Of a stretch of DNA of 64,000 bases, positions 1,125 through 64,000 are shown piece by piece. Source of the stretch: Escherichia coli (GTDB taxonomy: Bacteria; Pseudomonadota; Gammaproteobacteria; Enterobacterales; Enterobacteriaceae); the NCBI RefSeq assembly GCF_030013595.1, contig NZ_CP122768.1. One strand, given 5' to 3'. Under the pieces are notes generated by a model that was given only the letters and a program-made list of their open reading frames with translations, was not told where the DNA came from and did no database searches. The position numbers were made by a program, and so were the translations under genes. Numbering within the stretch: position 1 is the first letter of the stretch; every line of letters starts with the position of its first letter.

Positions 1125-2750
1125 TTACACACACACTCCCCCCGTCGCCCGCAGCAATAAATCATTCTGGATCTGCTCTGACAACCGTACGCCGCCGCGC
1201 GTATCTAACATCACCTGACACCACGCCTGCGCCATTGGCGGAGAGGCATATTTCAACATTTGCGCACCGCAGCCCAGCAGGAATAGCTGATGAGTAATCT
1301 CTCGCCCCAGTTCTTCAGCTGGCTTACGCAGCTGCTGTTGTAAACGACGTACCGCGCGATCAAAATAGCGATCCTGCCCTTTCACTTCCACAAATGCTTC
1401 CGATAATAAGTCGTATACACCCGCTTGCTTATTGAGCACGCGCAGTACATCCAGGCACATAATATTACCGGAACCTTCCCAAATACTGTTTACCGGCATC
1501 TCCCGGTAAAGCCGCGGCAGCTCGCTCTCCTCGCTATAACCAATGCCGCCCAGCACCTCCATCGCTTCGGCCACAAACGGCATACCTCGTTTGCAGATCA
1601 CAAATTTCGCCGCAGGCGTAAATAAACGCGCCCACAGGGCTTCTTTGGCATCGGCACGCCGGTCCCACGCTCGCGCAAGACGAAACAGCAACGCCGTTTG
1701 CCCTTCAAGCTGAAGTGCCATGCGACTTAAGACATGACGCATAAGGGGCTGTTGGATCAATGGATTACCAAAAACATGGCGTTGATGGGCATGATAAATC
1801 GCCAGCGAAAATGCACGGCGCATCATGGCATGGCTACCCAGGGCGCAATCAAAACGCGTCATCCCACCCATTTTCAGGATCAGACGAATTCCTTCCCCTT
1901 CCTGCCCCAACAACCAGCCAATGGCATCCTGAAACTCCACTTCGCAGCTGGCGTTAGAGCGATTACCCAGCTTATCTTTCAGCCGCTCGAGGCGAATCGC
2001 GTTGCGTTGCCCGTCAGGCAAAAAGCGCGGCACAAAAAAGCAGGACAAACCGCCCGTAGTCTGCGCCAGCACCAGATGCGCATCGCTTTGCGGCACCGAG
2101 AAAAACCATTTATGCCCCACCAGCCGATAAGAGCCATCTTCCAGGCGCTCTGCGCGGGTGGTGTTGCTCATGACATCGGAACCGCCCTGCTTTTCCGTCA
2201 TTCCCATGCCAATCAACAAACCGCGTTTTTGCCCACCTGGCAATAAGTGAGAATCGTAGCGATCGCTCAACAGCGGCGTGCTCCAGTCCTGAAACGGCGC
2301 GGGTAACATCTGTAACAGCAATGGCGTGGCGGCAAAGGTCATCGTTATCGGACATAACGACCCTGCCTCAACCTGTGCGTGCAACATCAAACGCGCCGCG
2401 CGCGCCACAAATGCGCCGGAGCGAGCGTCTTCTTCCCAGGCAAGATTGTGCACCCGATTGGTACATAGCGCCTGCATCAATAGGTGCCAGGCGGGGTGAA
2501 AACGCACATCGTCCAGACGCCGCCCCTGGGCATCGTAGCGCAATAATTCAGGCGGATTCACATTCGCCAGCCGCCCCAGTTCAAGGGATTCAGCCGTTCC
2601 TAACTGCTGACCAATACTGGCTAGAAAATCGCTATCCCAGCCAGCACCTTCACGCGTTACCGCTTCGCAGAGCGCGCCATCAGACAGGTATAAGTTGCTG
2701 TTATTTAATGGTATAGGTTGATTAAAAACGGTGTGAGTTTGCCAGTGCAC
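1125..2750 (-). CDS. aidB: Isovaleryl-CoA dehydrogenase-like adaptive-response protein AidB (acyl-CoA dehydrogenase fold), 541 aa
   Basis: ORF 1125..2768; probable GTG start at 2750 (VHWQTHTVFNQPIPL...); acyl-CoA dehydrogenase-like sequence throughout. Confidence 0.9.
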   Translation of the reverse strand: MHWQTHTVFNQPIPLNNSNLYLSDGALCEAVTREGAGWDSDFLASIGQQLGTAESLELGRLANVNPPELLRYDAQGRRLDDVRFHPAWHLLMQALCTNRVHNLAWEEDARSGAFVARAARLMLHAQVEAGSLCPITMTFAATPLLLQMLPAPFQDWSTPLLSDRYDSHLLPGGQKRGLLIGMGMTEKQGGSDVMSNTTRAERLEDGSYRLVGHKWFFSVPQSDAHLVLAQTTGGLSCFFVPRFLPDGQRNAIRLERLKDKLGNRSNASCEVEFQDAIGWLLGQEGEGIRLILKMGGMTRFDCALGSHAMMRRAFSLAIYHAHQRHVFGNPLIQQPLMRHVLSRMALQLEGQTALLFRLARAWDRRADAKEALWARLFTPAAKFVICKRGMPFVAEAMEVLGGIGYSEESELPRLYREMPVNSIWEGSGNIMCLDVLRVLNKQAGVYDLLSEAFVEVKGQDRYFDRAVRRLQQQLRKPAEELGREITHQLFLLGCGAQMLKYASPPMAQAWCQVMLDTRGGVRLSEQIQNDLLLRATGGVCV

Positions 2751-2833
2751 TGTGTCTCCCTCCATCAATGGCAGTCACCCTTAGTATGGTCACTGCCATG
2801 GATTCCTGACAGAAAGAGATTGCTAAAACATTC

Positions 2834-6971: not shown

Positions 6972-7680
6972 AATAAATATCCTCCGGCATAGCCGGAGGT
7001 TTTTCAAATGCGCCTGTAAGGCTCTGTTACCAGCCGCGCCCTAACAGGCGCATACGATCTGACATTTGCATTCAACTTCGTTACTTACGGCCCGTAAACG
7101 GGCTGCCCGGATATGGAATCGATAACTGCTCCCCCATTTTATCCTCTTCAAGCTGGTGCTTTATGTAGTCCTGTATCTTCGCCGTGTTCTTACCCACCGT
7201 ATCGACATAGTACCCTCGGCACCAGAACTCCCTGTTTCTGTATTTGAATTTCAAATCCCCAAACTGCTCGTAAAGCATCAGACTGCTTTTCCCTTTCAGA
7301 TATCCCATAAAGCCGGATACGCTCATTTTGGGTGGGATTTCCACAAGCATATGGATATGATCTGCGCAGCACTCTGCTTCCAGAATCCGTACGCTTTTCC
7401 ACTCACACAGCTTTCTCAAAATACTGCCTATCGCCCTACGCTTCTCTCCGTAAAACGCCAGTCTTCGGTATTTCGGCGCAAAAACTATGTGATATTTACA
7501 GTTCCAGCGGGTGTGCGCTAAGCTCTTTTCGTCCCCCATTGGGACCCCCTTTTGATTTCTTGTTTGACACTTGCAGTTGCCAGACCGCAAGGTGTTTTAA
7601 CAAATCAAAAGGGGTTTTAATAACTGGCTCAAAGCTGAAAGCTTTCCGGAACCCCCAGCCTAGCTGGGGGTTTTCTGTGC
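6972..7680 (-). mobile_element. IS200 insertion sequence (IS200/IS605 family), about 707 bp; ends estimated to within roughly 10 bp
   Basis: Contains tnpA (7081-7539); subterminal hairpin 7652-7670 (cccccagc/gctggggg); stem-loop 7546-7614 pairing the Shine-Dalgarno sequence; hairpins 6981-6999 and 7008-7053 at the other end; rlmB-to-yjfI spacing is about 710 bp longer than I expect for the native intergenic region. Confidence 0.8.
7081..7539 (-). CDS. tnpA: IS200 transposase TnpA (Y1/HUH single-strand transposase), 152 aa
   Basis: ORF 7081..7590 trimmed to ATG at 7539 (MGDEKSLAHTRWNCKYHIVFAPKYRR...HIHMLVEIPPK...); HxH motif and catalytic Tyr region recognisable. Confidence 0.9.
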   Translation of the reverse strand: MGDEKSLAHTRWNCKYHIVFAPKYRRLAFYGEKRRAIGSILRKLCEWKSVRILEAECCADHIHMLVEIPPKMSVSGFMGYLKGKSSLMLYEQFGDLKFKYRNREFWCRGYYVDTVGKNTAKIQDYIKHQLEEDKMGEQLSIPYPGSPFTGRK

Positions 7681-25175: not shown

Positions 25176-25332
25176 TTAATCTTCGTCTTTCGAACCGCTA
25201 CTGCCTTGGCTGCCTTCACTCACCTTAGTCACTTACTTTTGTAAGCTCCCAAGGATTCGTTCAGTTGCCGCCTTGTCGCAATTCGAAATACTGCGATTGG
25301 GTGGTCTGTGCTTTGCAGCACTTTTCAAATTT

Positions 25333-26164: not shown

Positions 26165-26258
26165 GCTATTTTCCACCCATTCACAGTGACTATATTGATC
26201 CACAATTGCGTGTATCATAGATGTTTTGCCCATCAGGGGCGACCAGGAGTCTGTACGA

Positions 26259-27311
26259 TTGAGTAAAAATAAACTCTCCAAAGGCCAGCAGCGCCGCGTG
26301 AACGCCAATCACCAGCGTCGTCTTAAAACGTCTAAGGAGAAGCCCGACTACGATGACAATCTGTTTGGCGAGCCTGATGAAGGTATCGTCATCAGCCGCT
26401 TTGGTATGCACGCTGATGTGGAATCCGCCGATGGCGACGTTCACCGCTGCAATATTCGCCGTACCATCCGTTCGCTGGTGACCGGCGACCGCGTAGTCTG
26501 GCGTCCGGGTAAACCGGCGGCGGAAGGCGTAAATGTCAAAGGGATCGTCGAAGCGGTGCATGAGCGCACCTCGGTGTTAACGCGCCCGGACTTCTACGAT
26601 GGCGTGAAACCTATTGCCGCCAACATCGACCAGATTGTCATTGTCTCCGCCATTTTGCCGGAGCTGTCGCTCAATATTATCGACCGTTACCTGGTGGCCT
26701 GCGAAACCTTGCAGATTGAGCCGATTATTGTGCTCAACAAGATAGACCTGCTGGACGACGAAGGCATGGCATTCGTCAACGAGCAGATGGATATCTACCG
26801 CAATATCGGTTATCGCGTATTGATGGTTTCCAGCCATACTCAGGATGGGCTGAAACCGCTGGAAGAGGCGCTGACCGGGCGCATCAGCATTTTTGCCGGG
26901 CAGTCTGGCGTCGGTAAATCCAGCCTGCTGAACGCGTTGCTGGGGCTGCAAAAAGAGATCCTGACCAACGATGTCTCTGACAACTCGGGGCTTGGTCAGC
27001 ACACCACGACCGCCGCTCGGCTGTATCACTTCCCGCACGGCGGTGATGTGATTGACTCCCCAGGTGTGCGTGAGTTCGGCCTCTGGCACCTGGAGCCGGA
27101 ACAAATCACTCAGGGCTTTGTCGAATTCCATGACTACTTAGGTCTGTGTAAATATCGCGATTGCAAACACGATACCGATCCGGGCTGCGCTATCCGGGAA
27201 GCGGTTGAGGAAGGGAAAATCGCGGAAACCCGTTTCGAAAACTATCACCGTATTCTGGAAAGCATGGCGCAGGTAAAAACGCGTAAAAACTTTTCTGATA
27301 CGGATGACTGA
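26259..27311 (+). CDS. rsgA: Ribosome small-subunit biogenesis GTPase RsgA (YjeQ), 350 aa
   Basis: ORF 26226..27311; probable TTG start at 26259 giving (M)[12 protein letters not shown]..., with AGGAG about 10 nt upstream; GKSS P-loop and C-terminal Zn-finger Cys residues. Confidence 0.85.
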
Positions 27312-28376: not shown

Positions 28377-28397
28377 TCCATCAAAGGAAACGCTGAC

Positions 28398-31300
28398 GTG
28401 CGCCTGATTATCACTTTTCTGATGGCCTGGTGCCTCAGTTGGGGGGCGTACGCCGCGACGGCCCCCGATAGCAAACAAATCTCACAAGAACTGGAGCAGG
28501 CAAAAGCGGCGAAACCCGCGCAACCGGAAGTCGTAGAGGCGCTCCAGTCTGCCTTAAATGCGCTTGAGGAACGGAAAGGTTCCCTTGAGCGCATCAAGCA
28601 ATATCAAGAAGTTATTGATAATTATCCGAAACTCTCCGCTACTCTGCGCGCGCAATTAAACAACATGCGTGACGAGCCGCGCAGCGTGTCACCGGGAATG
28701 TCTACCGACGCGCTGAATCAGGAAATTCTCCAGGTCAGCAGCCAGTTGCTGGATAAAAGCCGTCAGGCCCAGCAAGAGCAGGAACGCGCCCGCGAGATTG
28801 CCGATTCGCTGAATCAACTGCCGCAACAGCAAACCGATGCCCGCCGTCAGTTAAATGAAATCGAGCGCCGCCTGGGGACGCTTACCGGCAATTCCCCGCT
28901 CAATCAGGCACAAAATTTCGCGTTGCAGTCTGACTCCGCACGCCTGAAAGCGCTCGTCGATGAACTGGAACTGGCGCAGCTGTCCGCCAATAACCGCCAG
29001 GAATTAGCGCGCTTACGCTCAGAGCTGGCGGAAAAAGAGAGCCAGCAGCTGGATGCGTATTTGCAGGCCTTACGTAATCAGTTGAACAGCCAACGTCAGC
29101 TTGAGGCGGAGCGGGCGCTGGAAAGTACCGAATTGCTGGCAGAAAACAGCGCCGATTTGCCGAAAGACATCGTCGCGCAATTCAAAATTAACCGCGAACT
29201 ATCGGCGGCTTTGAATCAACAGGCGCAGCGGATGGATCTCGTTGCCTCGCAACAGCGTCAGGCTGCCAGCCAGACGTTACAGGTCCGGCAGGCGTTGAAT
29301 ACGCTGCGTGAACAGTCGCAATGGCTGGGCTCGTCCAACCTGCTCGGCGAAGCGTTGCGGGCGCAGGTGGCACGGCTGCCGGAAATGCCAAAACCACAAC
29401 AGCTTGATACCGAAATGGCGCAGTTACGTGTGCAACGGTTACGTTATGAGGATCTGCTTAATAAACAGCCGCTGCTACGGCAAATCCATCAGGCCGACGG
29501 TCAGCCGCTGACCGCTGAGCAAAACCGTATTCTGGAAGCACAGCTACGCACTCAGCGTGAGTTGCTGAACTCATTGTTGCAGGGTGGCGACACGCTACTG
29601 CTGGAGCTGACCAAGCTGAAAGTCTCCAACGGGCAACTGGAGGATGCGCTGAAAGAGGTGAATGAAGCGACGCACCGCTATCTGTTCTGGACCTCTGACG
29701 TGCGCCCGATGACCATCGCCTGGCCGCTGGAAATCGCCCAGGATCTGCGTCGTCTCATTTCGCTGGACACCTTCAGTCAGTTGGGCAAAGCCAGTGTGAT
29801 GATGCTGACCAGTAAAGAGACAATTTTACCGCTGTTTGGCGCGTTGATTCTGGTCGGTTGCAGTATTTACTCACGCCGCTATTTCACCCGTTTTCTTGAA
29901 CGTTCGGCGGCGAAAGTCGGCAAAGTGACTCAGGATCACTTCTGGCTGACGTTACGCACTCTTTTCTGGTCGATTCTCGTCGCGTCACCGCTACCGGTGC
30001 TGTGGATGACGCTGGGTTACGGCTTGCGCGAGGCGTGGCCTTATCCGCTGGCGGTAGCGATTGGTGATGGCGTAACAGCCACCGTACCGCTGCTATGGGT
30101 AGTGATGATTTGCGCTACCTTTGCCCGCCCGAACGGCTTATTTATCGCTCATTTTGGCTGGCCGCGCGAACGGGTTTCCCGTGGGATGCGCTACTACCTG
30201 ATGAGCATTGGGCTTATCGTGCCGCTGATTATGGCGCTGATGATGTTCGATAATCTCGACGACCGCGAGTTTTCCGGTTCGCTGGGACGGCTTTGCTTTA
30301 TCCTCATTTGCGGTGCGCTGGCGGTGGTCACTCTCAGTCTGAAAAAGGCCGGGATCCCGCTGTATCTCAACAAAGAAGGCAGCGGCGACAACATTACCAA
30401 CCATATGCTGTGGAACATGATGATTGGCGCACCGCTGGTTGCCATTCTGGCGTCGGCGGTGGGTTATCTGGCAACGGCGCAGGCACTGTTAGCGAGGCTT
30501 GAAACCTCGGTTGCCATCTGGTTCCTGCTACTAGTGGTTTATCACGTTATCCGCCGCTGGATGCTGATCCAGCGCCGCAGGCTGGCGTTTGACCGGGCGA
30601 AGCATCGCCGGGCAGAGATGTTAGCGCAACGTGCGCGTGGCGAAGAGGAAGCTCATCATCACAGTAGCCCGGAAGGGGCAATTGAAGTCGATGAAAGCGA
30701 AGTCGATCTCGATGCCATCAGTGCGCAATCCTTGCGGCTGGTGCGCTCAATTTTGATGTTGATCGCCCTGCTTTCGGTCATTGTGCTGTGGTCAGAAATC
30801 CATTCCGCTTTCGGCTTCCTCGAAAATATTTCGCTGTGGGATGTCACCTCCACGGTACAGGGCGTAGAAAGTCTGGAGCCGATTACCCTCGGTGCGGTGC
30901 TGATTGCCATTCTGGTGTTTATCATCACCACGCAGCTGGTGCGCAACCTGCCCGCGCTGCTGGAACTGGCGATTTTGCAGCACCTGGATTTAACGCCGGG
31001 TACAGGTTACGCCATCACCACCATCACCAAATATCTGCTGATGCTGATTGGCGGGCTGGTCGGCTTCTCAATGATTGGTATTGAGTGGTCGAAATTGCAG
31101 TGGCTGGTCGCCGCGCTCGGTGTTGGTCTCGGTTTTGGTTTGCAGGAAATTTTCGCCAACTTTATCTCTGGCCTGATCATCCTGTTCGAAAAACCGATTC
31201 GCATTGGCGATACGGTAACGATCCGCGATCTTACTGGTAGCGTGACGAAAATTAACACCCGCGCCACCACCATCAGCGACTGGGACCGTAAAGAGATAAT

Positions 31301-31721
31301 CGTGCCGAACAAGGCGTTTATTACCGAGCAGTTTATCAACTGGTCGCTCTCTGACTCGGTCACGCGCGTGGTGTTGACGATTCCGGCCCCTGCCGATGCC
31401 AACAGTGAAGAAGTGACGGAAATCCTGCTCACCGCAGCGCGTCGCTGCTCGCTGGTGATCGACAACCCGGCACCGGAAGTCTTCCTGGTGGATCTGCAAC
31501 AGGGGATTCAGATTTTCGAGCTGCGTATTTACGCCGCTGAGATGGGTCACCGTATGCCGCTACGCCATGAGATCCACCAGCTAATTCTGGCAGGCTTCCA
31601 TGCCCACGGTATCGATATGCCATTCCCGCCCTTCCAGATGCGTCTGGAAAGCCTCAACGGTAAACAAACGGGGAGAACATTAACTTCTGCGGGCAAAGGT
31701 CGTCAGGCGGGAAGTTTGTAA
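28398..31721 (+). CDS. mscM: Miniconductance mechanosensitive channel MscM (YjeP), MscS/MscK family, 1107 aa
   Basis: Intact ORF with GTG start; signal peptide, long Gln-rich coiled-coil periplasmic region, multi-TM region and MscS-like C-terminal domain. Confidence 0.9.
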   Translation: MRLIITFLMAWCLSWGAYAATAPDSKQISQELEQAKAAKPAQPEVVEALQSALNALEERKGSLERIKQYQEVIDNYPKLSATLRAQLNNMRDEPRSVSPGMSTDALNQEILQVSSQLLDKSRQAQQEQERAREIADSLNQLPQQQTDARRQLNEIERRLGTLTGNSPLNQAQNFALQSDSARLKALVDELELAQLSANNRQELARLRSELAEKESQQLDAYLQALRNQLNSQRQLEAERALESTELLAENSADLPKDIVAQFKINRELSAALNQQAQRMDLVASQQRQAASQTLQVRQALNTLREQSQWLGSSNLLGEALRAQVARLPEMPKPQQLDTEMAQLRVQRLRYEDLLNKQPLLRQIHQADGQPLTAEQNRILEAQLRTQRELLNSLLQGGDTLLLELTKLKVSNGQLEDALKEVNEATHRYLFWTSDVRPMTIAWPLEIAQDLRRLISLDTFSQLGKASVMMLTSKETILPLFGALILVGCSIYSRRYFTRFLERSAAKVGKVTQDHFWLTLRTLFWSILVASPLPVLWMTLGYGLREAWPYPLAVAIGDGVTATVPLLWVVMICATFARPNGLFIAHFGWPRERVSRGMRYYLMSIGLIVPLIMALMMFDNLDDREFSGSLGRLCFILICGALAVVTLSLKKAGIPLYLNKEGSGDNITNHMLWNMMIGAPLVAILASAVGYLATAQALLARLETSVAIWFLLLVVYHVIRRWMLIQRRRLAFDRAKHRRAEMLAQRARGEEEAHHHSSPEGAIEVDESEVDLDAISAQSLRLVRSILMLIALLSVIVLWSEIHSAFGFLENISLWDVTSTVQGVESLEPITLGAVLIAILVFIITTQLVRNLPALLELAILQHLDLTPGTGYAITTITKYLLMLIGGLVGFSMIGIEWSKLQWLVAALGVGLGFGLQEIFANFISGLIILFEKPIRIGDTVTIRDLTGSVTKINTRATTISDWDRKEIIVPNKAFITEQFINWSLSDSVTRVVLTIPAPADANSEEVTEILLTAARRCSLVIDNPAPEVFLVDLQQGIQIFELRIYAAEMGHRMPLRHEIHQLILAGFHAHGIDMPFPPFQMRLESLNGKQTGRTLTSAGKGRQAGSL

Positions 31722-31749
31722 GGTTTTGTGCCGGATGAACCCATCCGGC

Positions 31750-32064
31750 TCACAAACAAAACTGATAGCGCAGAAAAAACTGCCACAGCCAGTAGCCGAA
31801 AATAGCCAGCGCGGTGGCGTACATAAACCAGCCGCGTTTTTTTCGCCACAAAGCGAACCAGAGAAAAGGGAAAAAGAGCGGTAACGTCATTATCACACCG
31901 ACATCGCGAGTATCGTCATCTTCGAGATACATCAAAACATCACAGACGTTGTTAATCCCGCGTCCATCAATCATCCACTCTTTGTCCAGCGCGGAGGTAA
32001 TGGTTATCCAGAGGAACGCCACAATGAACCAGATGCAGCACAAGACAAACATGCGCGCACTCAT
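31750..32064 (-). CDS. yjeO: Small inner-membrane protein YjeO, 104 aa
   Basis: Intact hydrophobic ORF between mscM and yjeM. Confidence 0.75.
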   Translation of the reverse strand: MSARMFVLCCIWFIVAFLWITITSALDKEWMIDGRGINNVCDVLMYLEDDDTRDVGVIMTLPLFFPFLWFALWRKKRGWFMYATALAIFGYWLWQFFLRYQFCL

Positions 32065-32161
32065 GAGATAACCCGTAGTTTAATTTCGCTATAGCACATA
32101 CGAAATCCCACTAATTCCCTGTCATTGCGCCCTATCGTCAGACAGACGATAGGGCATCGGG

Positions 32162-35079: not shown

Positions 35080-35184
35080 GTTGTACCTATAAAGGAGCAG
35101 TGGAATAGCGTTCGCAGACCGTAACTTTCAGGCACTTACCCTGAAGTACGGGGCTGTGGGATAAAAACAATCTGGAGGAATGTC

Positions 35185-36985
35185 GTGCAAACCTTTCAAG
35201 CCGATCTTGCCATTGTAGGCGCCGGTGGCGCGGGATTACGTGCTGCAATTGCTGCCGCGCAGGCAAATCCAAATGCAAAAATCGCACTAATCTCAAAAGT
35301 ATACCCGATGCGTAGCCATACCGTTGCTGCAGAAGGGGGCTCCGCCGCTGTCGCGCAGGATCATGACAGCTTCGAATATCACTTTCACGATACAGTAGCG
35401 GGTGGCGACTGGTTGTGTGAGCAGGATGTCGTGGATTATTTCGTCCACCACTGCCCAACCGAAATGACCCAACTGGAACTGTGGGGATGCCCATGGAGCC
35501 GTCGCCCGGATGGTAGCGTCAACGTACGTCGCTTCGGCGGCATGAAAATCGAGCGTACCTGGTTCGCCGCCGATAAGACCGGCTTCCATATGCTGCACAC
35601 GCTGTTCCAGACCTCTCTGCAATTCCCGCAGATCCAGCGTTTTGACGAACATTTCGTGCTGGATATTCTGGTTGATGATGGTCATATTCGCGGCCTGGTA
35701 GCAATGAACATGATGGAAGGCACGCTGGTGCAGATCCGTGCTAACGCGGTCGTTATGGCTACCGGCGGTGCAGGTCGCGTTTATCGTTACAACACCAACG
35801 GCGGCATCGTTACCGGTGACGGTATGGGTATGGCGCTAAGCCACGGCGTTCCTCTGCGTGACATGGAATTCGTTCAGTATCACCCAACCGGTCTGCCCGG
35901 TTCCGGTATCCTGATGACAGAAGGCTGCCGCGGTGAAGGTGGTATTCTGGTCAACAAAAATGGCTACCGTTATCTGCAAGATTACGGCATGGGCCCGGAA
36001 ACTCCGCTGGGCGAGCCGAAAAACAAATATATGGAACTGGGGCCACGCGACAAAGTTTCTCAGGCCTTCTGGCACGAATGGCGTAAAGGCAACACCATCT
36101 CCACGCCGCGTGGCGATGTGGTTTATCTCGACCTGCGTCACCTCGGCGAGAAAAAACTGCATGAACGTCTGCCGTTCATCTGCGAACTGGCGAAAGCGTA
36201 CGTTGGCGTCGATCCGGTTAAAGAACCGATTCCGGTACGTCCGACCGCACACTACACCATGGGCGGTATCGAAACCGATCAGAACTGTGAAACCCGCATT
36301 AAAGGTCTGTTCGCCGTGGGTGAATGTTCCTCTGTTGGTCTGCACGGTGCAAACCGTCTGGGCTCCAACTCCCTGGCGGAACTGGTGGTCTTCGGTCGTC
36401 TGGCCGGTGAGCAAGCGACAGAGCGTGCAGCAACTGCTGGTAATGGCAACGAAGCGGCAATTGAAGCGCAGGCAGCTGGCGTTGAACAACGTCTGAAAGA
36501 TCTGGTTAACCAGGATGGCGGCGAAAACTGGGCGAAGATCCGCGACGAAATGGGCCTGGCTATGGAAGAAGGTTGCGGTATCTACCGTACGCCGGAACTG
36601 ATGCAGAAAACCATCGACAAGCTGGCTGAGCTGCAGGAACGCTTCAAGCGCGTGCGCATCACTGACACTTCCAGCGTGTTCAACACCGACCTGCTCTACA
36701 CCATTGAACTGGGCCACGGTCTGAACGTTGCTGAATGTATGGCGCACTCCGCAATGGCACGTAAAGAGTCCCGCGGCGCACACCAGCGTCTGGACGAAGG
36801 TTGCACCGAGCGTGACGACGTCAACTTCCTCAAACACACCCTCGCCTTCCGCGATGCTGATGGCACGACTCGCCTGGAGTACAGCGACGTGAAGATTACT
36901 ACGCTGCCGCCAGCTAAACGTGTTTACGGTGGCGAAGCGGATGCAGCCGATAAGGCGGAAGCAGCCAATAAGAAGGAGAAGGCGA

Positions 36986-36993
<8 letters not shown>
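35185..36993 (+). CDS. frdA: Fumarate reductase flavoprotein subunit FrdA, 602 aa
   Basis: Intact ORF with GTG start ([21 protein letters not shown]...); FAD dinucleotide-binding motif. Confidence 0.97.
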
Positions 36994-40644: not shown

Positions 40645-40691
40645 TTGGGGCCGTCCCCGGTGAAAAGAGGCGTTTGCAGGTCGTCCTGCAA
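40645..40691 (-). ncRNA. Guanidine-II riboswitch (mini-ykkC motif) in the gdx 5' leader
   Basis: Minus strand reads two GC-stem hairpins with ACGR loops, gcagg-ACGA-cctgc (40676-40689) and gggg-ACGG-cccc (40647-40658), joined by a 15-nt linker, about 20 nt upstream of the gdx ATG. Confidence 0.7.
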
Positions 40692-40802
40692 AGCTGATGG
40701 TTGAACGGATATTTTGCCAGGTGGCAGGGGAATTTCAACTATTACCTTTGTGACTATCGCAAAAAAACAAACGGCACGACATAACTGTCGTACCGTTATT
40801 GC

Positions 40803-42873: not shown

Positions 42874-43107
42874 CTGATTAAACAGGGAAGTTTAATCTTT
42901 GCACGTTGCATAACCTTTAATTATTCATATACATTGCTGTTATTACTTTTTATATAACCAACACCAATAATTAACCTTTCTTTTCTGTTTATATAGAGTG
43001 AGCACGGCTATTTATGTTATTTTAACAACTATTACTACCAAGCCCATTTATCTGGCTTATAAATTAAAATTAATTATTTAATTGAGAAATGGTTAGGGAG
43101 AACCTAC

Positions 43108-53843: not shown

Positions 53844-53879
53844 ACGACACTTGCAGTGGGAAAGACGGAGGAAAATAGC

Positions 53880-54455
53880 GTGCAACGTGAAGATGTACTG
53901 GGAGAAGCCCTGAAATTATTAGAATTACAAGGGATTGCCAACACCACGCTGGAGATGGTTGCTGAACGTGTGGATTATCCACTGGACGAGCTACGCCGCT
54001 TCTGGCCAGACAAAGAGGCAATCCTCTACGATGCGCTGCGTTATCTTAGCCAACAGATAGATGTCTGGCGTCGTCAGCTGATGCTGGACGAAACGCAAAC
54101 CGCCGAACAAAAGTTGCTGGCACGTTATCAGGCGTTATCGGAGTGCGTTAAAAACAACCGCTATCCGGGCTGTCTGTTTATCGCTGCCTGTACGTTTTAT
54201 CCCGATCCTGGCCACCCTATTCATCAACTGGCCGATCAGCAAAAAAGCGCGGCCTACGATTTCACCCACGAACTGTTAACCACACTGGAAGTTGACGATC
54301 CGGCGATGGTAGCAAAGCAGATGGAACTGGTGCTGGAAGGCTGTTTAAGCCGAATGCTGGTGAATCGTAGCCAGGCGGATGTCGACACCGCACATCGGCT
54401 GGCGGAAGATATCCTGCGCTTCGCCCGCTGCCGCCAGGGTGGTGCTTTGACCTGA
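53880..54455 (+). CDS. yjdC: TetR-family transcriptional regulator YjdC, 191 aa
   Basis: ORF 53856..54455; probable GTG start at 53880 ([31 protein letters not shown]...); N-terminal helix-turn-helix. Confidence 0.8.
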
Positions 54456-54561: not shown

Positions 54562-54637
54562 GCCCGGATAGCTCAGTCGGTAGAGCAGGGGATTGAAAAT
54601 CCCCGTGTCCTTGGTTCGATTCCGAGTCCGGGCACCA
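54562..54637 (+). tRNA. pheU: tRNA-Phe (GAA)
   Basis: gcccggatagctcagtcggtagagcaggggattgaaaatccccgtgtccttggttcgattccgagtccgggcacca, 76 nt, followed by hairpin ggacctcc/ggaggtcc plus TTTTT at 54653-54678. Confidence 0.95.
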
Positions 54638-54834
54638 AATTCATATCAACGGACCTCCACGGAGGTCCGTTTTTCGTTTCAGAACACCATGATTTAAGTG
54701 TTCTTCCTCCAAATCAATTCTACCGAACTCAACCAAATTCTCCCCACATCAACCTCATTGTGTGGGTATAATTGCGGGTATACCCCAGTTCGACAGAATT
54801 TGTACCCTCTTTAACGCATTCAGAAGGCTGAACT

Positions 54835-56097
54835 ATGGCACTGACTGACGCAAAAATCCGGGCTGCAAAGCCCACTGACAAGGCTTATAAACTCACTGAC
54901 GGGGCCGGCATGTTCCTGCTGGTTCATCCTAATGGTTCCCGTTACTGGCGTCTCCGTTATCGTATTCTGGGTAAGGAGAAGACTCTGGCACTTGGTGTGT
55001 ATCCGGAAGTTTCTCTCTCCGAAGCTCGTACAAAACGGGATGAGGCCCGAAAACTGATTTCAGAGGGGATTGACCCTTGCGAACAGAAAAGAGTTAAAAA
55101 AGTTGTCCCTGATTTACAGCTCTCTTTTGAACATATTGCACGACGCTGGCATGCCAGTAATAAACAATGGGCACAATCACACAGCGATAAAGTACTCAAA
55201 AGCCTCGAGACACACGTTTTCCCCTTTATCGGCAACCGGGATATCACAACACTCAATACCCCGGACCTGCTTATCCCTGTTCGTGCTGCAGAAGCAAAAC
55301 AAATTTATGAAATCGCCAGTCGTCTGCAGCAAAGAATATCTGCTGTAATGCGTTATGCCGTACAGTCTGGCATCATCAGATATAACCCGGCTCTGGATAT
55401 GGCTGGTGCATTGACCACGGTAAAACGCCAGCATCGCCCTGCTCTGGATCTTTCACGCCTGCCTGAACTTCTGTCGCGTATTGACGGTTATAAAGGCCAG
55501 CCTGTCACCCGACTGGCAGTTATGCTGAATTTACTGGTTTTTATTCGTTCCAGTGAACTCAGATATGCCCGCTGGTCTGAAATTGATATTGACAATGCCA
55601 TGTGGACTATTCCAGCCGAACGCGAACCTCTGCCAGGCGTAAAATTTTCATACCGGGGCTCCAAGATGCGAACACCACATCTTGTGCCACTCAGCCAACA
55701 GGCTGTAGCCATACTGGCAGAACTTCAGACATGGGCAGGTGAAAATGGTCTGATCTTTACGGGAGCACATGACCCACGTAAACCAATCAGTGAAAACACC
55801 GTAAATAAAGCCCTGAGGGTTATGGGGTATGACACAACCCAGGATGTCTGTGGTCATGGATTCCGGGCGATGGCATGTAGTGCATTAATAGAATCAGGTT
55901 TGTGGTCCCGCGATGCTGTGGAACGCCAGATGAGCCATCAGGAGCGTAATGGTGTACGTGCTGCGTATATCCATAAAGCCGAACATCTGGAAGAACGTCG
56001 ACTTATGCTACAGTGGTGGGCAGATTTTCTGGATGCGAACAGAGAACAATGTATCAGCCCGTTTGAATATGCAAAGATTAACAATCCATTAAAATAG
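54835..56097 (+). CDS. int: P4-type tyrosine integrase of a tRNA-Phe-associated island, 420 aa
   Basis: Intact ORF (MALTDAKIRAAKPTDKAYKLTDGAGMFLLVHPNGSRYWRLRYRILGKEKTLALGVYPEVSLSEARTKRDEARK...) with C-terminal catalytic region (HGFRAMA...RLMLQWW); sits directly 3' of a tRNA. Confidence 0.85.
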   Translation: MALTDAKIRAAKPTDKAYKLTDGAGMFLLVHPNGSRYWRLRYRILGKEKTLALGVYPEVSLSEARTKRDEARKLISEGIDPCEQKRVKKVVPDLQLSFEHIARRWHASNKQWAQSHSDKVLKSLETHVFPFIGNRDITTLNTPDLLIPVRAAEAKQIYEIASRLQQRISAVMRYAVQSGIIRYNPALDMAGALTTVKRQHRPALDLSRLPELLSRIDGYKGQPVTRLAVMLNLLVFIRSSELRYARWSEIDIDNAMWTIPAEREPLPGVKFSYRGSKMRTPHLVPLSQQAVAILAELQTWAGENGLIFTGAHDPRKPISENTVNKALRVMGYDTTQDVCGHGFRAMACSALIESGLWSRDAVERQMSHQERNGVRAAYIHKAEHLEERRLMLQWWADFLDANREQCISPFEYAKINNPLK

Positions 56098-56282
56098 TAA
56101 TCATCCCGGGCAGCTAGCCCGGGAATTATTTTCTGAATATTTTTCTTTGTGAGTAACTGGAAAAAGGATAGCGAAGTAAATTACTTTAATGAATTATTCC
56201 AGGGGCTCATTAAAGTTCTTTCGTAATACTTTGTAGTCAAACACGTTATGGCTGGCATCAAAAACCAGGTAATGACTCCAAC

Positions 56283-56780
56283 TTATTGATAGTGTTTTAT
56301 GTTCAGATAATGCCCGATGACCTTGTCATGCAGCTCCACCGATTTTGAGAACGACAGTGACTTCCGTCCCAGCCTTGCCAGATGTTGTCTCAGATTATGT
56401 CGCTCAATGCGCTGAGTGTAACGCTTGCTGATAACGTGCAGCTTTCCCTTCAGGCGTGATTCATACAGCGGCCAGCCATCCGTCATCTATACCACGACCT
56501 CAAAGGCCGACAGCAGGCTCAGAATACGCTCCAGTGTGGCCAGAGTGCGTTCACCGAAGACGTGCGCCACAACCGTCCTCCGTATCCTGTCATACGCGTA
56601 AAACAGCCAGCGCTGACGTGATTTAGCACCGACGTAGCCCCACTGTTCGTCCATTTCAGCGCAGACAATCACATCACTGCCCGGTTGTATGCGCGAGGTT
56701 ACCGACTGCGGCCTGAGTTTTTTAAGTGACGTAAAACCGTGTTGAGGCCAACGCCCATAATGCGTGCACTGGCGCGACAT
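56283..56780 (-). pseudogene. insB: IS1 insB disrupted by an in-frame TAG stop; also appears to carry a 6-bp in-frame deletion
   Basis: Two ORF-track fragments (56487..56780 and 56283..56486) are separated only by TAG at 56487-56489 where canonical InsB has Trp (..VVIWMTDGW..); fragment 2 lacks two residues relative to my recollection of InsB (HNLNLRQ vs HNLRQ here). Confidence 0.7.
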
Positions 56781-56974
56781 CCGACGCCATTCATGGCCAT
56801 ATCAATGATTTTCTGGTGCTTACCGGGCTGAGAGGCGGTGTAAGTGAACTGTAGTTGCCATGTTTTACGGCAATGAGAGCAGAGATAGCGCTGATGTCCG
56901 GCAGTGCTTTTGCCGTTACGCACCACGCCTTCAGTAGCGGAGCAGGAAGGACATCTGATGGAAATGGAAGCCAC
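56699..56974 (-). CDS. insA: IS1 InsA (transposition inhibitor / N-terminal part of InsAB'), 91 aa
   Basis: GTG start; [42 protein letters not shown]... with Zn-finger Cys pairs. Confidence 0.9.
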
Positions 56975-57201
56975 GCAAGCACCTTAAAATCACCATCATA
57001 CACTAAATCAGTAAGTTGGCAGCATTACCGAAATCCCCATCCTTTAGGGCAGTGAGAATGTCAATAATAGCAGACCACATCATGAGTCATTTTGACCGAC
57101 ACATGCAGAAGCAGAGGCTCCATCCCATTTTATACCTACCCTATAACACTTAGAAAAACAACATGTTAAAAATGTCTATTGGAAACAATTTTATTTCCAA
57201 T

Positions 57202-57220
57202 TGTAATGATAACCATTCTC
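57202..57220 (+). promoter_or_regulatory. Fur box upstream of fecI
   Basis: tgtaatgataaccattctc matches the 19-bp Fur consensus GATAATGATAATCATTATC at 15 of 19 positions; about 45 bp upstream of fecI. Confidence 0.6.
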
Positions 57221-57264
57221 ATATTAATATGGCTACGTGATAATTAACTTTTGATGCACTCCGC

Positions 57265-57782
57265 ATGTCTGACCGCGCCACTACCACAGCTTCCTTAACG
57301 TTCGAGTCGCTTTATGGCACACATCACGGCTGGTTGAAAAGCTGGCTGACGCGCAAACTCCAGTCTGCTTTTGATGCAGATGACATTGCCCAGGACACTT
57401 TTTTGCGGGTAATGGTCAGCGAAACGCTCTCGACGATCCGCGATCCTCGCTCCTTCCTGTGCACTATCGCCAAACGCGTGATGGTGGACCTGTTTCGCCG
57501 AAACGCGCTGGAAAAAGCGTATCTGGAGATGCTGGCGCTTATGCCGGAGGGGGGAGCGCCTTCACCTGAGGAACGCGAAAGCCAACTCGAGACCCTACAA
57601 CTCCTCGACAGCATGCTGGACGGGCTAAACGGCAAAACACGTGAAGCGTTTCTGCTTTCGCAACTGGATGGTCTGACATACAGCGAGATTGCGCACAAAC
57701 TCGGTGTTTCCATCAGCTCCGTGAAAAAATACGTGGCGAAAGCCGTCGAGCACTGCCTGCTGTTCCGTCTGGAGTATGGGTT

Positions 57783-57786
<4 letters not shown>
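57265..57786 (+). CDS. fecI: ECF sigma factor FecI, 173 aa
   Basis: Intact ORF ([28 protein letters not shown]...). Confidence 0.95.
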
Positions 57787-61147
<3,361 letters not shown>

Positions 61148-61156
61148 TGTGTTAAC

Positions 61157-61177
61157 GCCCGGCTTGCCGGGCTTTTA
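61157..61177 (+). terminator. Hairpin between fecA and fecB (attenuator-like)
   Basis: cccggc / gccggg stem followed by a T-rich tract, between fecA stop and fecB start. Confidence 0.5.
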
Positions 61178-61191
61178 GCTGGAATGTGATT

Positions 61192-62094
61192 ATGTTGGCA
61201 TTTATCCGTTTTCTTTTTGCAGGCCTGCTGCTGGTGATCAGCCACGCCTTTGCCGCCACGGTTCAGGACGAACACGGCACGTTTACACTCGAAAAAACGC
61301 CACAACGGATTGTGGTGCTGGAACTCTCGTTCGCCGATGCGCTGGCCGCCGTGGACGTCAGCCCGATCGGTATTGCCGACGATAACGATGCAAAACGCAT
61401 CCTGCCCGAAGTGCGTGCGCACCTGAAACCGTGGCAGTCCGTCGGAACGCGCGCGCAGCCGAGCCTGGAAGCCATTGCCGCTCTGAAACCAGACCTGATC
61501 ATTGCCGACAGCAGTCGCCATGCGGGGGTTTACATCGCCTTGCAGCAAATCGCGCCGGTACTGCTGCTTAAGTCCCGCAACGAAACCTACGCTGAAAATT
61601 TGCAATCTGCGGCTATCATCGGCGAAATGGTGGGTAAAAAGCGAGAGATGCAGGCACGTCTGGAACAACATAAAGAGAGGATGGCGCAGTGGGCCAGCCA
61701 GCTTCCCAAAGGGACACGCGTGGCCTTTGGCACATCACGCGAACAGCAATTCAACCTGCATACTCAGGAGACCTGGACCGGCAGCGTGCTGGCCTCTCTG
61801 GGGCTGAACGTTCCCGCTGCGATGGCGGGTGCGTCCATGCCGTCCATCGGCCTGGAGCAACTGCTGGCGGTCAATCCTGCCTGGCTGCTGGTTGCCCACT
61901 ATCGCGAAGAGAGCATTGTTAAACGCTGGCAACAAGATCCGCTCTGGCAGATGTTAACCGCCGCGCAGAAGCAGCAGGTTGCTTCGGTCGACAGTAACAC
62001 CTGGGCGCGGATGCGCGGTATTTTTGCTGCAGAGCGTATTGCCGCTGACACGGTAAAAATCTTCCACCATCAGCCGCTTACCGTTGTGAAATGA
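61192..62094 (+). CDS. fecB: Periplasmic ferric-citrate binding protein FecB, 300 aa
   Basis: ORF 61186..62094 trimmed to ATG at 61192 (MLAFIRFLFAGLLLVISHAFAATVQDE...). Confidence 0.95.
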   Translation: MLAFIRFLFAGLLLVISHAFAATVQDEHGTFTLEKTPQRIVVLELSFADALAAVDVSPIGIADDNDAKRILPEVRAHLKPWQSVGTRAQPSLEAIAALKPDLIIADSSRHAGVYIALQQIAPVLLLKSRNETYAENLQSAAIIGEMVGKKREMQARLEQHKERMAQWASQLPKGTRVAFGTSREQQFNLHTQETWTGSVLASLGLNVPAAMAGASMPSIGLEQLLAVNPAWLLVAHYREESIVKRWQQDPLWQMLTAAQKQQVASVDSNTWARMRGIFAAERIAADTVKIFHHQPLTVVK

Positions 62095-63089
62095 CCGCGA
62101 TAAAACACCCGGTGCTGCTGTGGGGGCTTCCCGTTGCAGCACTTATTATTATTTTCTGGCTGAGTCTGTTTTGCTACTCGGCCATTCCTGTTTCCGGAGC
62201 AGATGCAACCCGCGCCCTGCTGCCTGGACACACGCCAACGCTACCAGAAGCGCTGGTGCAAAACCTTCGTTTGCCACGAAGCCTCGTCGCCGTTCTGATC
62301 GGCGCAAGCCTGGCGCTCGCGGGCACGCTGCTGCAAACCCTGACCCACAACCCAATGGCCTCTCCTTCACTGCTCGGCATTAACAGCGGCGCGGCGCTGG
62401 CTATGGCGCTTACCAGCGCGCTGAGTCCGACGCCGATTGCAGGCTATTCTCTGTCGTTCATCGCGGCATGCGGGGGCGGCGTGAGCTGGCTGCTGGTCAT
62501 GACCGCAGGAGGCGGATTTCGTCATACCCATGACAGAAACAAACTGATCCTCGCGGGTATCGCGCTGTCGGCCTTTTGTATGGGCCTTACCCGCATCACC
62601 CTGCTGCTGGCCGAAGATCATGCTTACGGCATCTTTTACTGGCTGGCAGGCGGAGTGTCCCACGCCCGCTGGCAGGATGTCTGGCAGCTCTTGCCGGTGG
62701 TGGTCACTGCAGTCCCTGTCGTGTTGCTGCTGGCGAATCAACTGAACCTGCTCAACCTCAGCGACAGCACCGCCCATACGCTGGGAGTGAACCTGACGAG
62801 GCTACGTTTGGTCATCAATATGTTAGTGCTGCTTCTGGTTGGTGCGTGCGTCAGCGTGGCAGGTCCGGTGGCATTTATCGGTCTGCTGGTGCCACATCTG
62901 GCGCGCTTCTGGGCAGGCTTCGATCAGCGCAACGTACTGCCAGTGAGCATGCTGCTGGGGGCCACGCTGATGCTGCTGGCAGATGTACTCGCACGCGCGC
63001 TGGCCTTCCCCGGAGATCTGCCCGCAGGCGCAGTGCTGGCGCTGATTGGCAGCCCTTGCTTTGTCTGGCTTGTGAGGAGGCGAGGATGA
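62091..63089 (+). CDS. fecC: Ferric-citrate ABC transporter permease FecC, 332 aa
   Basis: Intact ORF; ATGA overlap with fecB stop. Confidence 0.95.
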   Translation: MTAIKHPVLLWGLPVAALIIIFWLSLFCYSAIPVSGADATRALLPGHTPTLPEALVQNLRLPRSLVAVLIGASLALAGTLLQTLTHNPMASPSLLGINSGAALAMALTSALSPTPIAGYSLSFIAACGGGVSWLLVMTAGGGFRHTHDRNKLILAGIALSAFCMGLTRITLLLAEDHAYGIFYWLAGGVSHARWQDVWQLLPVVVTAVPVVLLLANQLNLLNLSDSTAHTLGVNLTRLRLVINMLVLLLVGACVSVAGPVAFIGLLVPHLARFWAGFDQRNVLPVSMLLGATLMLLADVLARALAFPGDLPAGAVLALIGSPCFVWLVRRRG

Positions 63090-64000
63090 AAATTGCGCTG
63101 GTTATTTTCATCACCCTTGCCCTGGCGGGCTGTGCGCTGTTATCACTCCATATGGGAGTGATCCCCGTGCCGTGGCGCGCGCTGCTGACCGACTGGCAGG
63201 CCGGACGCGAGCATTATTATGTATTGATGGAGTACCGACTGCCGCGCTTGCTGCTGGCACTGTTTGTCGGTGCAGCCCTCGCCGTGGCGGGTGTGCTGAT
63301 ACAGGGGATTGTGCGCAACCCTCTGGCATCACCGGATATTCTCGGCGTTAACCATGCCGCCAGCCTGGTCTCTGTGGGGGCTCTACTTCTTATGCCGTCA
63401 CTGCCCGTGATGGTGCTGCCGCTGCTGGCCTTTGCGGGCGGCATGGCGGGGTTGATATTGCTGAAGATGCTGGCAAAGACCCACCAGCCGATGAAGCTGG
63501 CGCTCACCGGCGTGGCGCTTTCTGCATGCTGGGCCAGCCTGACGGATTATCTGATGCTCTCGCGCCCGCAGGATGTGAACAACGCCCTGCTGTGGCTGAC
63601 CGGCAGCTTATGGGGCCGTGACTGGAGCTTTGTGAAGATTGCCATCCCGCTGATGATTTTATTTCTGCCGCTGAGCCTGAGTTTTTGCCACGATCTCGAC
63701 CTCCTTGCACTCGGCGATGCGCGCGCCACCACGCTCGGTGTGTCGGTGCCCCATACCCGATTCTGGGCTTTGTTACTAGCTGTCGCCATGACATCTACCG
63801 GCGTGGCCGCCTGCGGCCCGATTAGCTTTATTGGTCTCGTGGTGCCGCATATGATGCGTAGCATCACCGGTGGACGTCACCGCAGACTGCTGCCTGTTTC
63901 GGCCCTGACAGGTGCGTTGCTGTTGGTGGTTGCCGATCTGCTGGCGAGAATTATTTATCCCCCACTGGAGCTCCCGGTTGGCGTGCTGACCGCCATTATC
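63086..64000 (+). CDS. fecD: Ferric-citrate ABC transporter permease FecD, partial (runs off window end)
   Basis: ATG at 63086 overlapping fecC stop; translates MKIALVIFITLALAGCALLSLHMGVIPVPW...; no stop before position 64000, so absent from the ORF track. Confidence 0.9.
   Translation, partial: MKIALVIFITLALAGCALLSLHMGVIPVPWRALLTDWQAGREHYYVLMEYRLPRLLLALFVGAALAVAGVLIQGIVRNPLASPDILGVNHAASLVSVGALLLMPSLPVMVLPLLAFAGGMAGLILLKMLAKTHQPMKLALTGVALSACWASLTDYLMLSRPQDVNNALLWLTGSLWGRDWSFVKIAIPLMILFLPLSLSFCHDLDLLALGDARATTLGVSVPHTRFWALLLAVAMTSTGVAACGPISFIGLVVPHMMRSITGGRHRRLLPVSALTGALLLVVADLLARIIYPPLELPVGVLTAII

What the first reader, a model, noticed from the sequence alone, without database searches (positions are those of the whole stretch)
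26259..26261. Non-ATG start codons in several core genes
rsgA appears to start with TTG at 26259 (good SD 10 nt upstream); frdA (35185), aidB (2748-2750, minus), yjdC (53880), mscM (28398) and insA (56972-56974, minus) appear to use GTG. The ORF track's upstream-extended calls would mis-annotate most of these.
Basis: inference. Interest (0 to 1): 0.12.

Follow-up and report, generated by a model that had tools for sequence, protein, structure and literature searches.

The report
Known non-ATG start codons, E. coli

Summary
The window is a non-K-12 E. coli chromosome segment (yjfP-aidB ... hfq ... rsgA-psd-mscM ... frdABCD ... groSL ... dsbD-dicD-pheU, then an integrase/IS1/fec island). All six codons are at the stated coordinates: rsgA TTG 26259, frdA GTG 35185, aidB GTG 2750(-), yjdC/dicD GTG 53880, mscM GTG 28398, IS1 insA GTG 56974(-). 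Each equals the annotated start in both curated K-12 MG1655 and NCBI PGAP records. Each has a Shine-Dalgarno site. In 34-80 other Enterobacteriaceae the aligned codon is the same: rsgA TTG 80/80, mscM GTG 80/80, frdA GTG 67/67, and dicD GTG in five other genera. Codon-periodic variation begins right after it. For aidB, Salmonella and Citrobacter carry ATG at the same position. Corrections:
- The longest-ORF call is wrong for three of the six, not "most".
- insA belongs to a defective IS1, not a core gene.
- E. coli aidB has an in-frame ATG 15 nt upstream that could be a minor alternative start.
Ten non-ATG starts among 64 is the expected rate. Verdict: real, already known, ordinary.

The parts
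26259..26261 (+). rsgA TTG initiation codon (CDS 26259-27311, 350 aa)
   Evidence: Searches show the codon. It is the annotated start in PGAP and in K-12 b4161. The aligned codon is TTG in 80/80 Enterobacteriaceae. Entropy by codon position is 0.04/0.02/0.79 in codons 2-21 against 0.36/0.44/0.36 upstream.
26245..26249 (+). rsgA Shine-Dalgarno AGGAG, 9 nt before the TTG
   Evidence: Invariant in 80 species. SD:anti-SD pairing is -6.9 kcal/mol, against +0.4 for the upstream TTG at 26226.
35185..35187 (+). frdA GTG initiation codon (CDS 35185-36993, 602 aa); SD GGAGG at 35174-35178
   Evidence: GTG in 67/67 species with an invariant CTGGAGGAATGTC upstream. The FAD_binding_2 domain starts at residue 7. 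It is the first start-type codon of the ORF.
2748..2750 (-). aidB GTG initiation codon (CDS 1125-2750, 541 aa); SD GGAGGGAG at 2756-2763
   Evidence: Salmonella and 3 Citrobacter have ATG at exactly this aligned position with the same SD. AidB_N starts at residue 10. SD pairing is -9.8 kcal/mol.
2763..2765 (-). E. coli-specific in-frame ATG 15 nt upstream of the aidB GTG (possible minor alternative start)
   Evidence: This codon is AAG in Salmonella and Citrobacter. Its SD is weaker, -4.9 kcal/mol. It is not the annotated start.
53880..53882 (+). dicD (yjdC) GTG initiation codon (CDS 53880-54455, 191 aa); SD GGAGGA at 53867-53872
   Evidence: GTG and the SD are conserved in E. coli, Salmonella, C. 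rodentium, Kosakonia, Superficieibacter and Enterobacter. The upstream GTG at 53856 is not conserved, and Kosakonia has a 10-nt indel upstream.
28398..28400 (+). mscM GTG initiation codon (CDS 28398-31721, 1107 aa); SD AAGGA at 28384-28388
   Evidence: GTG in 80/80 species while the upstream sequence is highly variable, and most species have in-frame stops 9-48 nt upstream. In the window the psd stop codon lies in frame at -24.
56972..56974 (-). IS1 insA GTG initiation codon (ORF 56699-56974, 91 aa); SD AAGGTG at 56980-56985
   Evidence: It aligns to the GTG of K-12 IS1A insA1 b0022. The Zn_ribbon_InsA profile starts at residue 1.
56268..57029 (-). IS1 copy carrying insA (762 bp, 91% identical to IS1A); insB frame disrupted
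   Evidence: Alignment A3 shows TGG->TAG and a 6-bp deletion in insB. PGAP marks it as a pseudogene with 'programmed frameshift; internal stop'.
   Evidence: Annotated start in PGAP and K-12. The aligned codon is TTG in 77 and GTG in 3 of 80 species, with an invariant CCTGGAGGCTA upstream. SD pairing is -9.3 kcal/mol.
   Evidence: Annotated start. TTG in 34/34 species.
   Evidence: Annotated start in PGAP and K-12. SD pairing is -7.4 kcal/mol. The FxsA domain starts at residue 8.
   Evidence: Annotated start in PGAP and K-12. The Rrf2 domain starts at residue 3. SD pairing is -6.3 kcal/mol.

Best explanation
These are ordinary Shine-Dalgarno-led bacterial initiation sites that use the near-cognate codons GUG or UUG. 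The 30S subunit pairs its anti-SD sequence with a purine-rich SD 5-9 nt upstream. Initiator fMet-tRNA then reads the GUG or UUG in the P site, so the protein still starts with (formyl-)Met. Established work finds that such codons usually give several-fold lower translation than AUG. The positions are shown here by annotation, SD placement and conservation. The initiation chemistry itself is inferred from general knowledge, not tested. For rsgA, psd, mscM, frdA, hflX and dicD the specific non-ATG codon is fixed across Enterobacteriaceae. For aidB the start position is conserved, but E. coli has GTG where Salmonella and Citrobacter have ATG. insA uses the GTG that is standard for IS1.
For: - All six codons are present as stated.
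- They are identical to the annotated starts in K-12 MG1655 and in PGAP records.
- SD pairing is -4.0 to -9.8 kcal/mol at the annotated sites and +1.2 to -4.9 at every alternative. The background mean is -1.8.
- The aligned start codon is rsgA TTG 80/80, psd TTG 77 plus GTG 3, mscM GTG 80/80, frdA GTG 67/67 and hflX TTG 34/34. This is as invariant as the ATG control genes.
- Third-position-dominated variation begins immediately after the start codon, and there is no periodicity upstream.
- Upstream in-frame stops with no intervening start occur in many species. One example is a TAA at -6 of rsgA in Trabulsiella.
- aidB orthologues have ATG at the same aligned position. The dicD GTG and its SD are conserved in six genera, with an upstream indel in one.
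- Pfam domains begin 1-10 residues after the proposed starts for FrdA, AidB, InsA, NsrR and FxsA.
- PDB RsgA entries use the 350-residue sequence, and 5UZ4 models it from residue 6.
Against: I could retrieve no gene-level N-terminal proteomics or initiation-profiling data for these genes, so the support is comparative and annotation-based. The upstream TTG of rsgA at 26226 is itself invariant, being part of a conserved UUGCCC stem, and only 1 of 80 species excludes it by a stop codon placed between it and the annotated TTG. aidB in E. coli has an in-frame ATG at -15 with a moderate SD-like GGTGA. mscM has a conserved ATG at codon 9.
Confidence: 0.93

Rival explanations
1. The longest-ORF (upstream) start codons are the real ones: rsgA TTG 26226, aidB TTG 2768 and dicD GTG 53856.
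For: They are in frame with no intervening stop in the window. The rsgA upstream TTG is invariant in 80 species.
Against: - None has a strong SD: +0.4, -4.9 and +0.3 kcal/mol.
- The rsgA segment between 26226 and 26259 shows no codon periodicity. It contains a hypervariable 5-nt hairpin loop between invariant stem arms, and a TAA at -6 in one species.
- The dicD upstream GTG is absent in Salmonella, Citrobacter, Kosakonia and Superficieibacter, and Kosakonia has a 10-nt indel there.
- aidB upstream sequence diverges freely between genera.
- Neither annotation uses these starts.
Confidence: 0.03
2. aidB in E. coli initiates, wholly or partly, at the lineage-specific ATG 15 nt upstream (2765-2763). 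That would give a 546-residue proteoform, MEGDT + VHWQ..., alongside or instead of the GTG product.
For: The ATG is in frame and is present in both the window and K-12. A GGTGA motif lies 9 nt upstream and pairs at -4.9 kcal/mol. AUG is intrinsically a stronger start than GUG. Closely spaced alternative starts are reported to be common in E. coli (PMC13245402).
Against: The ancestral start position is the GTG site, which is ATG in Salmonella and Citrobacter with the same GGAGGGAG SD. That SD is twice as strong (-9.8) and overlaps the upstream ATG. K-12 and PGAP both annotate the GTG. From the likely -10 element, the putative SD for the ATG would sit at the extreme 5' end of the transcript (inference).
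Confidence: 0.12
3. Downstream in-frame codons are the true starts: rsgA GTG codon 14 or ATG codon 50, and mscM ATG codon 9.
For: The codons exist in frame. mscM Met9 is conserved.
Against: These sites have no SD: -3.2, +1.2 and +0.6 kcal/mol. Codons 2-13 of rsgA are conserved at the protein level with synonymous-type variation. RsgA residues from 6 onward are modelled on the 30S subunit in 5UZ4. Starting MscM at Met9 would remove Arg2 and half of the hydrophobic core of its predicted signal peptide (inference from the sequence).
Confidence: 0.02

Closest known systems
E. coli K-12 MG1655 reference annotation: rsgA b4161, frdA b4154, aidB b4187, dicD/yjdC b4135, mscM b4159, psd b4160, hflX b4173, fxsA b4140, nsrR b4178
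   Same: The start position, start codon and protein length are the same for every gene. The 120-nt start regions are 98-100% identical.
   Different: The window is from another strain. It has an IS200 between yjfI and rlmB, lacks yjeN, has an ERIC-like repeat in the glyVXY array, and carries an integrase/IS1/fec island at pheU. None of these touches the start sites.
Phylogenetically conserved near-cognate start codons such as cyaA UUG and tufA/fus GUG (PMC5499595)
   Same: A GUG or UUG start is fixed across Enterobacterales with a good SD. rsgA, psd, mscM, frdA, hflX and dicD behave this way.
   Different: No regulatory role of the start codon has been shown for the genes here. ATG-start neighbours are equally invariant at this divergence, so the conservation by itself does not single these genes out.
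IS1 insA / insAB' (K-12 IS1A, insA1 b0022)
   Same: The GTG start follows an (A/G)AGGTG SD just inside the left inverted repeat. The 91-aa InsA has a Zn ribbon and an HTH, and the A6C slippery motif is retained.
   Different: The window copy is 91% identical. Its insB frame has TGG->TAG and a 6-bp deletion, so the InsAB' transposase cannot be made.
infC AUU autoregulated start (IF3 discrimination)
   Same: It is a non-AUG initiation codon conserved across bacteria (PMC5499595).
   Different: AUU is non-canonical and is discriminated by IF3. GUG and UUG are treated as canonical. No autoregulatory logic is evident here.

Membership tests
SD-led initiation at a near-cognate (GUG/UUG) start codon | GTG or TTG in frame at the 5' end of the conserved coding region | tested here: met
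   rsgA, psd, mscM, frdA, hflX; aidB; dicD; insA.
SD-led initiation at a near-cognate (GUG/UUG) start codon | Shine-Dalgarno complementarity about 5-10 nt upstream, stronger than at competing codons | tested here: met
   -4.0 to -9.8 kcal/mol at annotated sites, against +1.2 to -4.9 at alternatives. The SD cores are invariant across species.
SD-led initiation at a near-cognate (GUG/UUG) start codon | Protein N-terminus is fMet/Met decoded from the GUG/UUG (experimental N-terminus or initiation-arrest footprint) | not testable with these tools
   Gene-level tables from TetRP, Ribo-RET, INRI-seq, REPARATION and TRAINSPOTTER could not be retrieved.
SD-led initiation at a near-cognate (GUG/UUG) start codon | Agreement with independent curated annotation | tested here: met
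   K-12 MG1655 and PGAP give the same starts for all genes.
Functional IS1 element (insA + insAB' by -1 frameshift) | Terminal inverted repeats, insA ORF with GTG start, A6C slippery site | tested here: met
   Alignment to IS1A. The InsA domains are present.
Functional IS1 element (insA + insAB' by -1 frameshift) | Intact insB' reading frame | tested here: not met
   TGG->TAG and a 6-bp deletion. PGAP marks a pseudogene with an internal stop.
Regulatory start codon (translation tuned through start-codon identity, as for cyaA or infC) | Start-codon identity conserved more than neutral expectation, with a demonstrated expression consequence | tested here: inconclusive
   The codons are invariant in 34-80 species, but ATG starts of neighbouring genes are just as invariant. 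No expression data are available.

The most novel reading that the evidence does not exclude
The family-wide fixation of weak start codons in the consecutive genes rsgA (UUG), psd (UUG) and mscM (GUG), and in the ribosome-associated GTPase gene hflX (UUG), might be a selected translational set-point. It could make these proteins' synthesis respond differently from AUG genes to ribosome availability, ppGpp or IF3. For rsgA this could act together with the invariant 5'-UTR hairpin just upstream of the SD.
Probability: 0.08. Interest if true: 0.3.

Novelty: already known. Interest (0 to 1): 0.05.

Why it matters
It matters only for annotation hygiene. A longest-ORF rule would add 6-11 spurious N-terminal residues to RsgA, AidB and DicD, and it over-extends many ATG genes in the window too. 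The check shows that the standard annotation is right and that nothing new is hidden at these coordinates. The one residual biological question is whether E. coli AidB also initiates at the lineage-specific upstream ATG.

Tried and rejected
- I looked for gene-level experimental start-site data in the supplements of TetRP (PMC4909307), TRAINSPOTTER (PMC13245402), Ribo-RET (bioRxiv 520783), INRI-seq (PMC9825163) and REPARATION (PMC5714196). Either no file was held or no gene name or accession was found.
- Literature searches for frdA/GTG, AidB/N-terminal and yjeQ/TTG gave nothing relevant. The 1994 aidB paper and the NAR 2017 start-codon paper are not held.
- Enrichment of non-ATG starts in the window is rejected: 10 of 63-64 against 10.7-12.2 expected.
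- The run of three non-ATG starts in rsgA-psd-mscM is not significant. The expected number of such runs per window is 0.3-0.45.
- A known RNA family in the rsgA leader is rejected: no Rfam hit.
- I ran no further search on tracing the rsgA TTG beyond Enterobacteriaceae, because the answer would not change the verdict.

Full report
**Identity of the window.** A 4-kb probe around the finding matches 5425 of 5426 complete E. coli genomes. It is 100% identical to strain HCP5S3_I2 and 95-99% identical to most others. The annotated records give the gene order yjfP-bsmA-yjfN-aidB-yjfCMLKJI-rlmB-rnr-nsrR-purA-yjeT-hflCKX-hfq-miaA-mutL-amiB-tsaE-nnr/queG-glyVXY-orn/rsgA-psd-mscM-yjeO-yjeM-epmA/frdABCD-ampC-blc-sugE-ecnBA-efp/epmB-yjeJ-yjeI-groLS/yjeH-fxsA/aspA-dcuA-cutA-dsbD-dicD-pheU. 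An integrase, an IS1 and fecIRABCD follow.

**The observation.**
- rsgA: TTG at 26259
- frdA: GTG at 35185
- aidB: GTG at 2750-2748 (minus strand)
- yjdC (now dicD): GTG at 53880
- mscM: GTG at 28398
- insA: GTG at 56974-56972 (minus strand)

I mapped 120-nt start regions from three PGAP-annotated E. coli records and from curated K-12 MG1655 onto the window. Every one of the six is the annotated start in both (insA through). For rsgA, AGGAG lies at 26245-26249, 9 nt before the TTG.

**Why these triplets are starts and not chance.** Start-type triplets are frequent: 2685 on one strand. Only 5.5% of them have an SD:anti-SD pairing of -6 kcal/mol or better. The annotated sites score -5.6 to -9.8, and insA scores -4.0 with AAGGTG. 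Every competing in-frame codon scores +1.2 to -4.9.

A single scan for rsgA relatives returned 80 Enterobacteriaceae loci with 10-kb flanks. The codon aligned to each window start was as follows:

| Gene | Aligned start codon |
|---|---|
| rsgA | TTG 80/80 |
| psd | TTG 77, GTG 3 |
| mscM | GTG 80/80 |
| frdA | GTG 67/67 |
| hflX | TTG 34/34 |

Variation becomes codon-periodic immediately after these codons. For rsgA, entropy by codon position is 0.04/0.02/0.79 in codons 2-21 and 0.36/0.44/0.36 in the 30 nt upstream. For frdA it is 0.19/0.02/1.00 against 0.44/0.65/0.37. Many species have in-frame stops just upstream with no other start codon between. These include a TAA at -6 of rsgA in Trabulsiella and stops 9-48 nt upstream of mscM. 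Pfam domains begin at residue 7 (FrdA FAD_binding_2), 10 (AidB_N), 1 (InsA zinc ribbon), 3 (NsrR Rrf2) and 8 (FxsA). PDB RsgA entries use the same 350-residue sequence, and 5UZ4 models it from residue 6.

**aidB and dicD.** I fetched orthologous DNA through protein look-ups.
- aidB: Salmonella and three Citrobacter species have ATG exactly where E. coli has GTG, behind the same GGAGGGAGACAC. The in-frame ATG that E. coli carries 15 nt upstream is AAG in all of them. So the start position is ancestral and E. coli has weakened the codon. The lineage-specific upstream ATG has a GGTGA SD at -4.9 kcal/mol and remains a possible minor alternative (about 0.12).
- dicD: the GTG and a GGAGGA SD are conserved in six genera. 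The upstream GTG at 53856, which the longest-ORF rule would pick, is not conserved. Kosakonia has a 10-nt indel there, which shows the region is non-coding.

**insA.** The GTG aligns with the annotated GTG of K-12 IS1A insA1. The window copy (56268-57029, 762 bp, 91% identical) keeps both ends, insA and the A6C slippery motif. Its insB frame has TGG->TAG and a 6-bp deletion. PGAP calls it a pseudogene. It is a decayed mobile element, not a core gene.

- The ORF track over-extends only rsgA (26226), aidB (2768) and yjdC (53856). For frdA, mscM and insA its call already is the GTG.
- Four further annotated non-ATG starts were missed: psd TTG 27408, hflX TTG 16975(-), fxsA TTG 48524(-) and nsrR GTG 11457(-).
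- The longest-ORF rule over-extends at least 18 ATG genes as well, so the problem is not specific to non-ATG genes.

**Is it unusual?** No. Ten of 63 mapped starts are non-ATG (6 GTG, 4 TTG), or 10 of 64 with IS200 tnpA, which is ATG. Expectation is 12.2 from the bacteria-wide frequencies of AUG 80.1%, GUG 11.6% and UUG 7.8% (PMC5499595). It is 10.7 from my recollection of K-12 usage. No tail probability is below 0.1. The three consecutive non-ATG starts in rsgA-psd-mscM are expected 0.3-0.45 times per window. Conservation of the non-ATG codons is no greater than that of ATG in the neighbouring genes orn, epmA, hfq, mutL, tsaE, queG and frdB. Phylogenetically fixed GUG/UUG starts are a described phenomenon (PMC5499595). 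Several-fold lower expression from GTG/TTG is likewise established (PMC11445065).

**Mechanism.** This is standard SD-led 30S initiation with fMet-tRNA reading GUG or UUG. The sites are shown by sequence, annotation and comparison. The decoding step and the N-terminal Met are inferred from general knowledge. I could not retrieve gene-level N-terminomics or initiation-profiling tables. From memory only, the FrdA N-terminus was determined when the gene was first sequenced.

**Verdict.** It is already known and of very low interest. The most novel reading still open is that the weak starts of rsgA, psd, mscM and hflX are a selected translational set-point, perhaps working with the invariant hairpin in the rsgA leader. 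It has low probability and modest interest.

Noticed in passing
window 26213-26249 (+): The rsgA leader has an invariant TATCAT, then an invariant stem UUGCCC / GGGCGA (26226-26242) around a 5-nt loop, ending just before the invariant SD. The loop is hypervariable across 80 Enterobacteriaceae. The hairpin appears in the MFE and centroid folds. There is no Rfam family and no covariation, because the stem never varies. It may be a 5'-terminal stabilising hairpin or a protein site shared with the divergent orn promoter.
   Followed up: partly
window ~6986-7680 (-): An IS200/IS605-family element sits between yjfI and rlmB. Its tnpA is 152 aa with an ATG start inside ORF 7081-7590, and it has an Rfam STnc490 hit at 7549-7672. 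It is found at this site in only 4 of 5426 complete E. coli genomes.
   Followed up: partly
window 54562-64000: A genomic island lies downstream of tRNA-Phe (pheU): integrase 54835-56097, a defective IS1 at 56268-57029, then fecIRABCD running off the window. K-12 and the otherwise closest strain have an integrase remnant and cadCBA here instead.
   Followed up: partly
window ~25176-25332: The spacer between the first and second tRNA-Gly(GCC) genes is about 157 nt, against 35-36 nt in K-12. The insert is a dispersed repeat with a median of 7 places per E. coli genome, present at this site in 1606 of 5426 genomes. From memory of the ERIC primer sequences, it resembles an ERIC/IRU element.
   Followed up: partly
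window 2763-2765 (-): E. coli aidB has gained an in-frame ATG 15 nt upstream (AAG in Salmonella and Citrobacter), while its ancestral ATG start became GTG. This could yield two N-terminal proteoforms.
   Followed up: partly
window 40646-40692 (-): A guanidine-II (mini-ykkC) riboswitch lies upstream of sugE/gdx (Rfam 50.4 bits). This is the known arrangement.
   Followed up: no
window 31722-32160 vs K-12 yjeN-yjeO: yjeN (K-12 b4157) has no counterpart in the window. The yjeO start region is only 92% identical to K-12, so this is a variable spot between mscM and yjeM.
   Followed up: no
window 53880-54455 (+): DicD/YjdC is annotated as a TetR/AcrR-like regulator, yet it gives no Pfam hit at E<=0.001. 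Only a few close homologues carry a precomputed PF00440 hit.
   Followed up: no
window 42874-43107 vs strain HCP5S3_I2: The closest strain over 25-29 kb carries an IS4-like ISVsa5 between epmB and yjeJ. The window lacks it, so the window is not from that strain.
   Followed up: no
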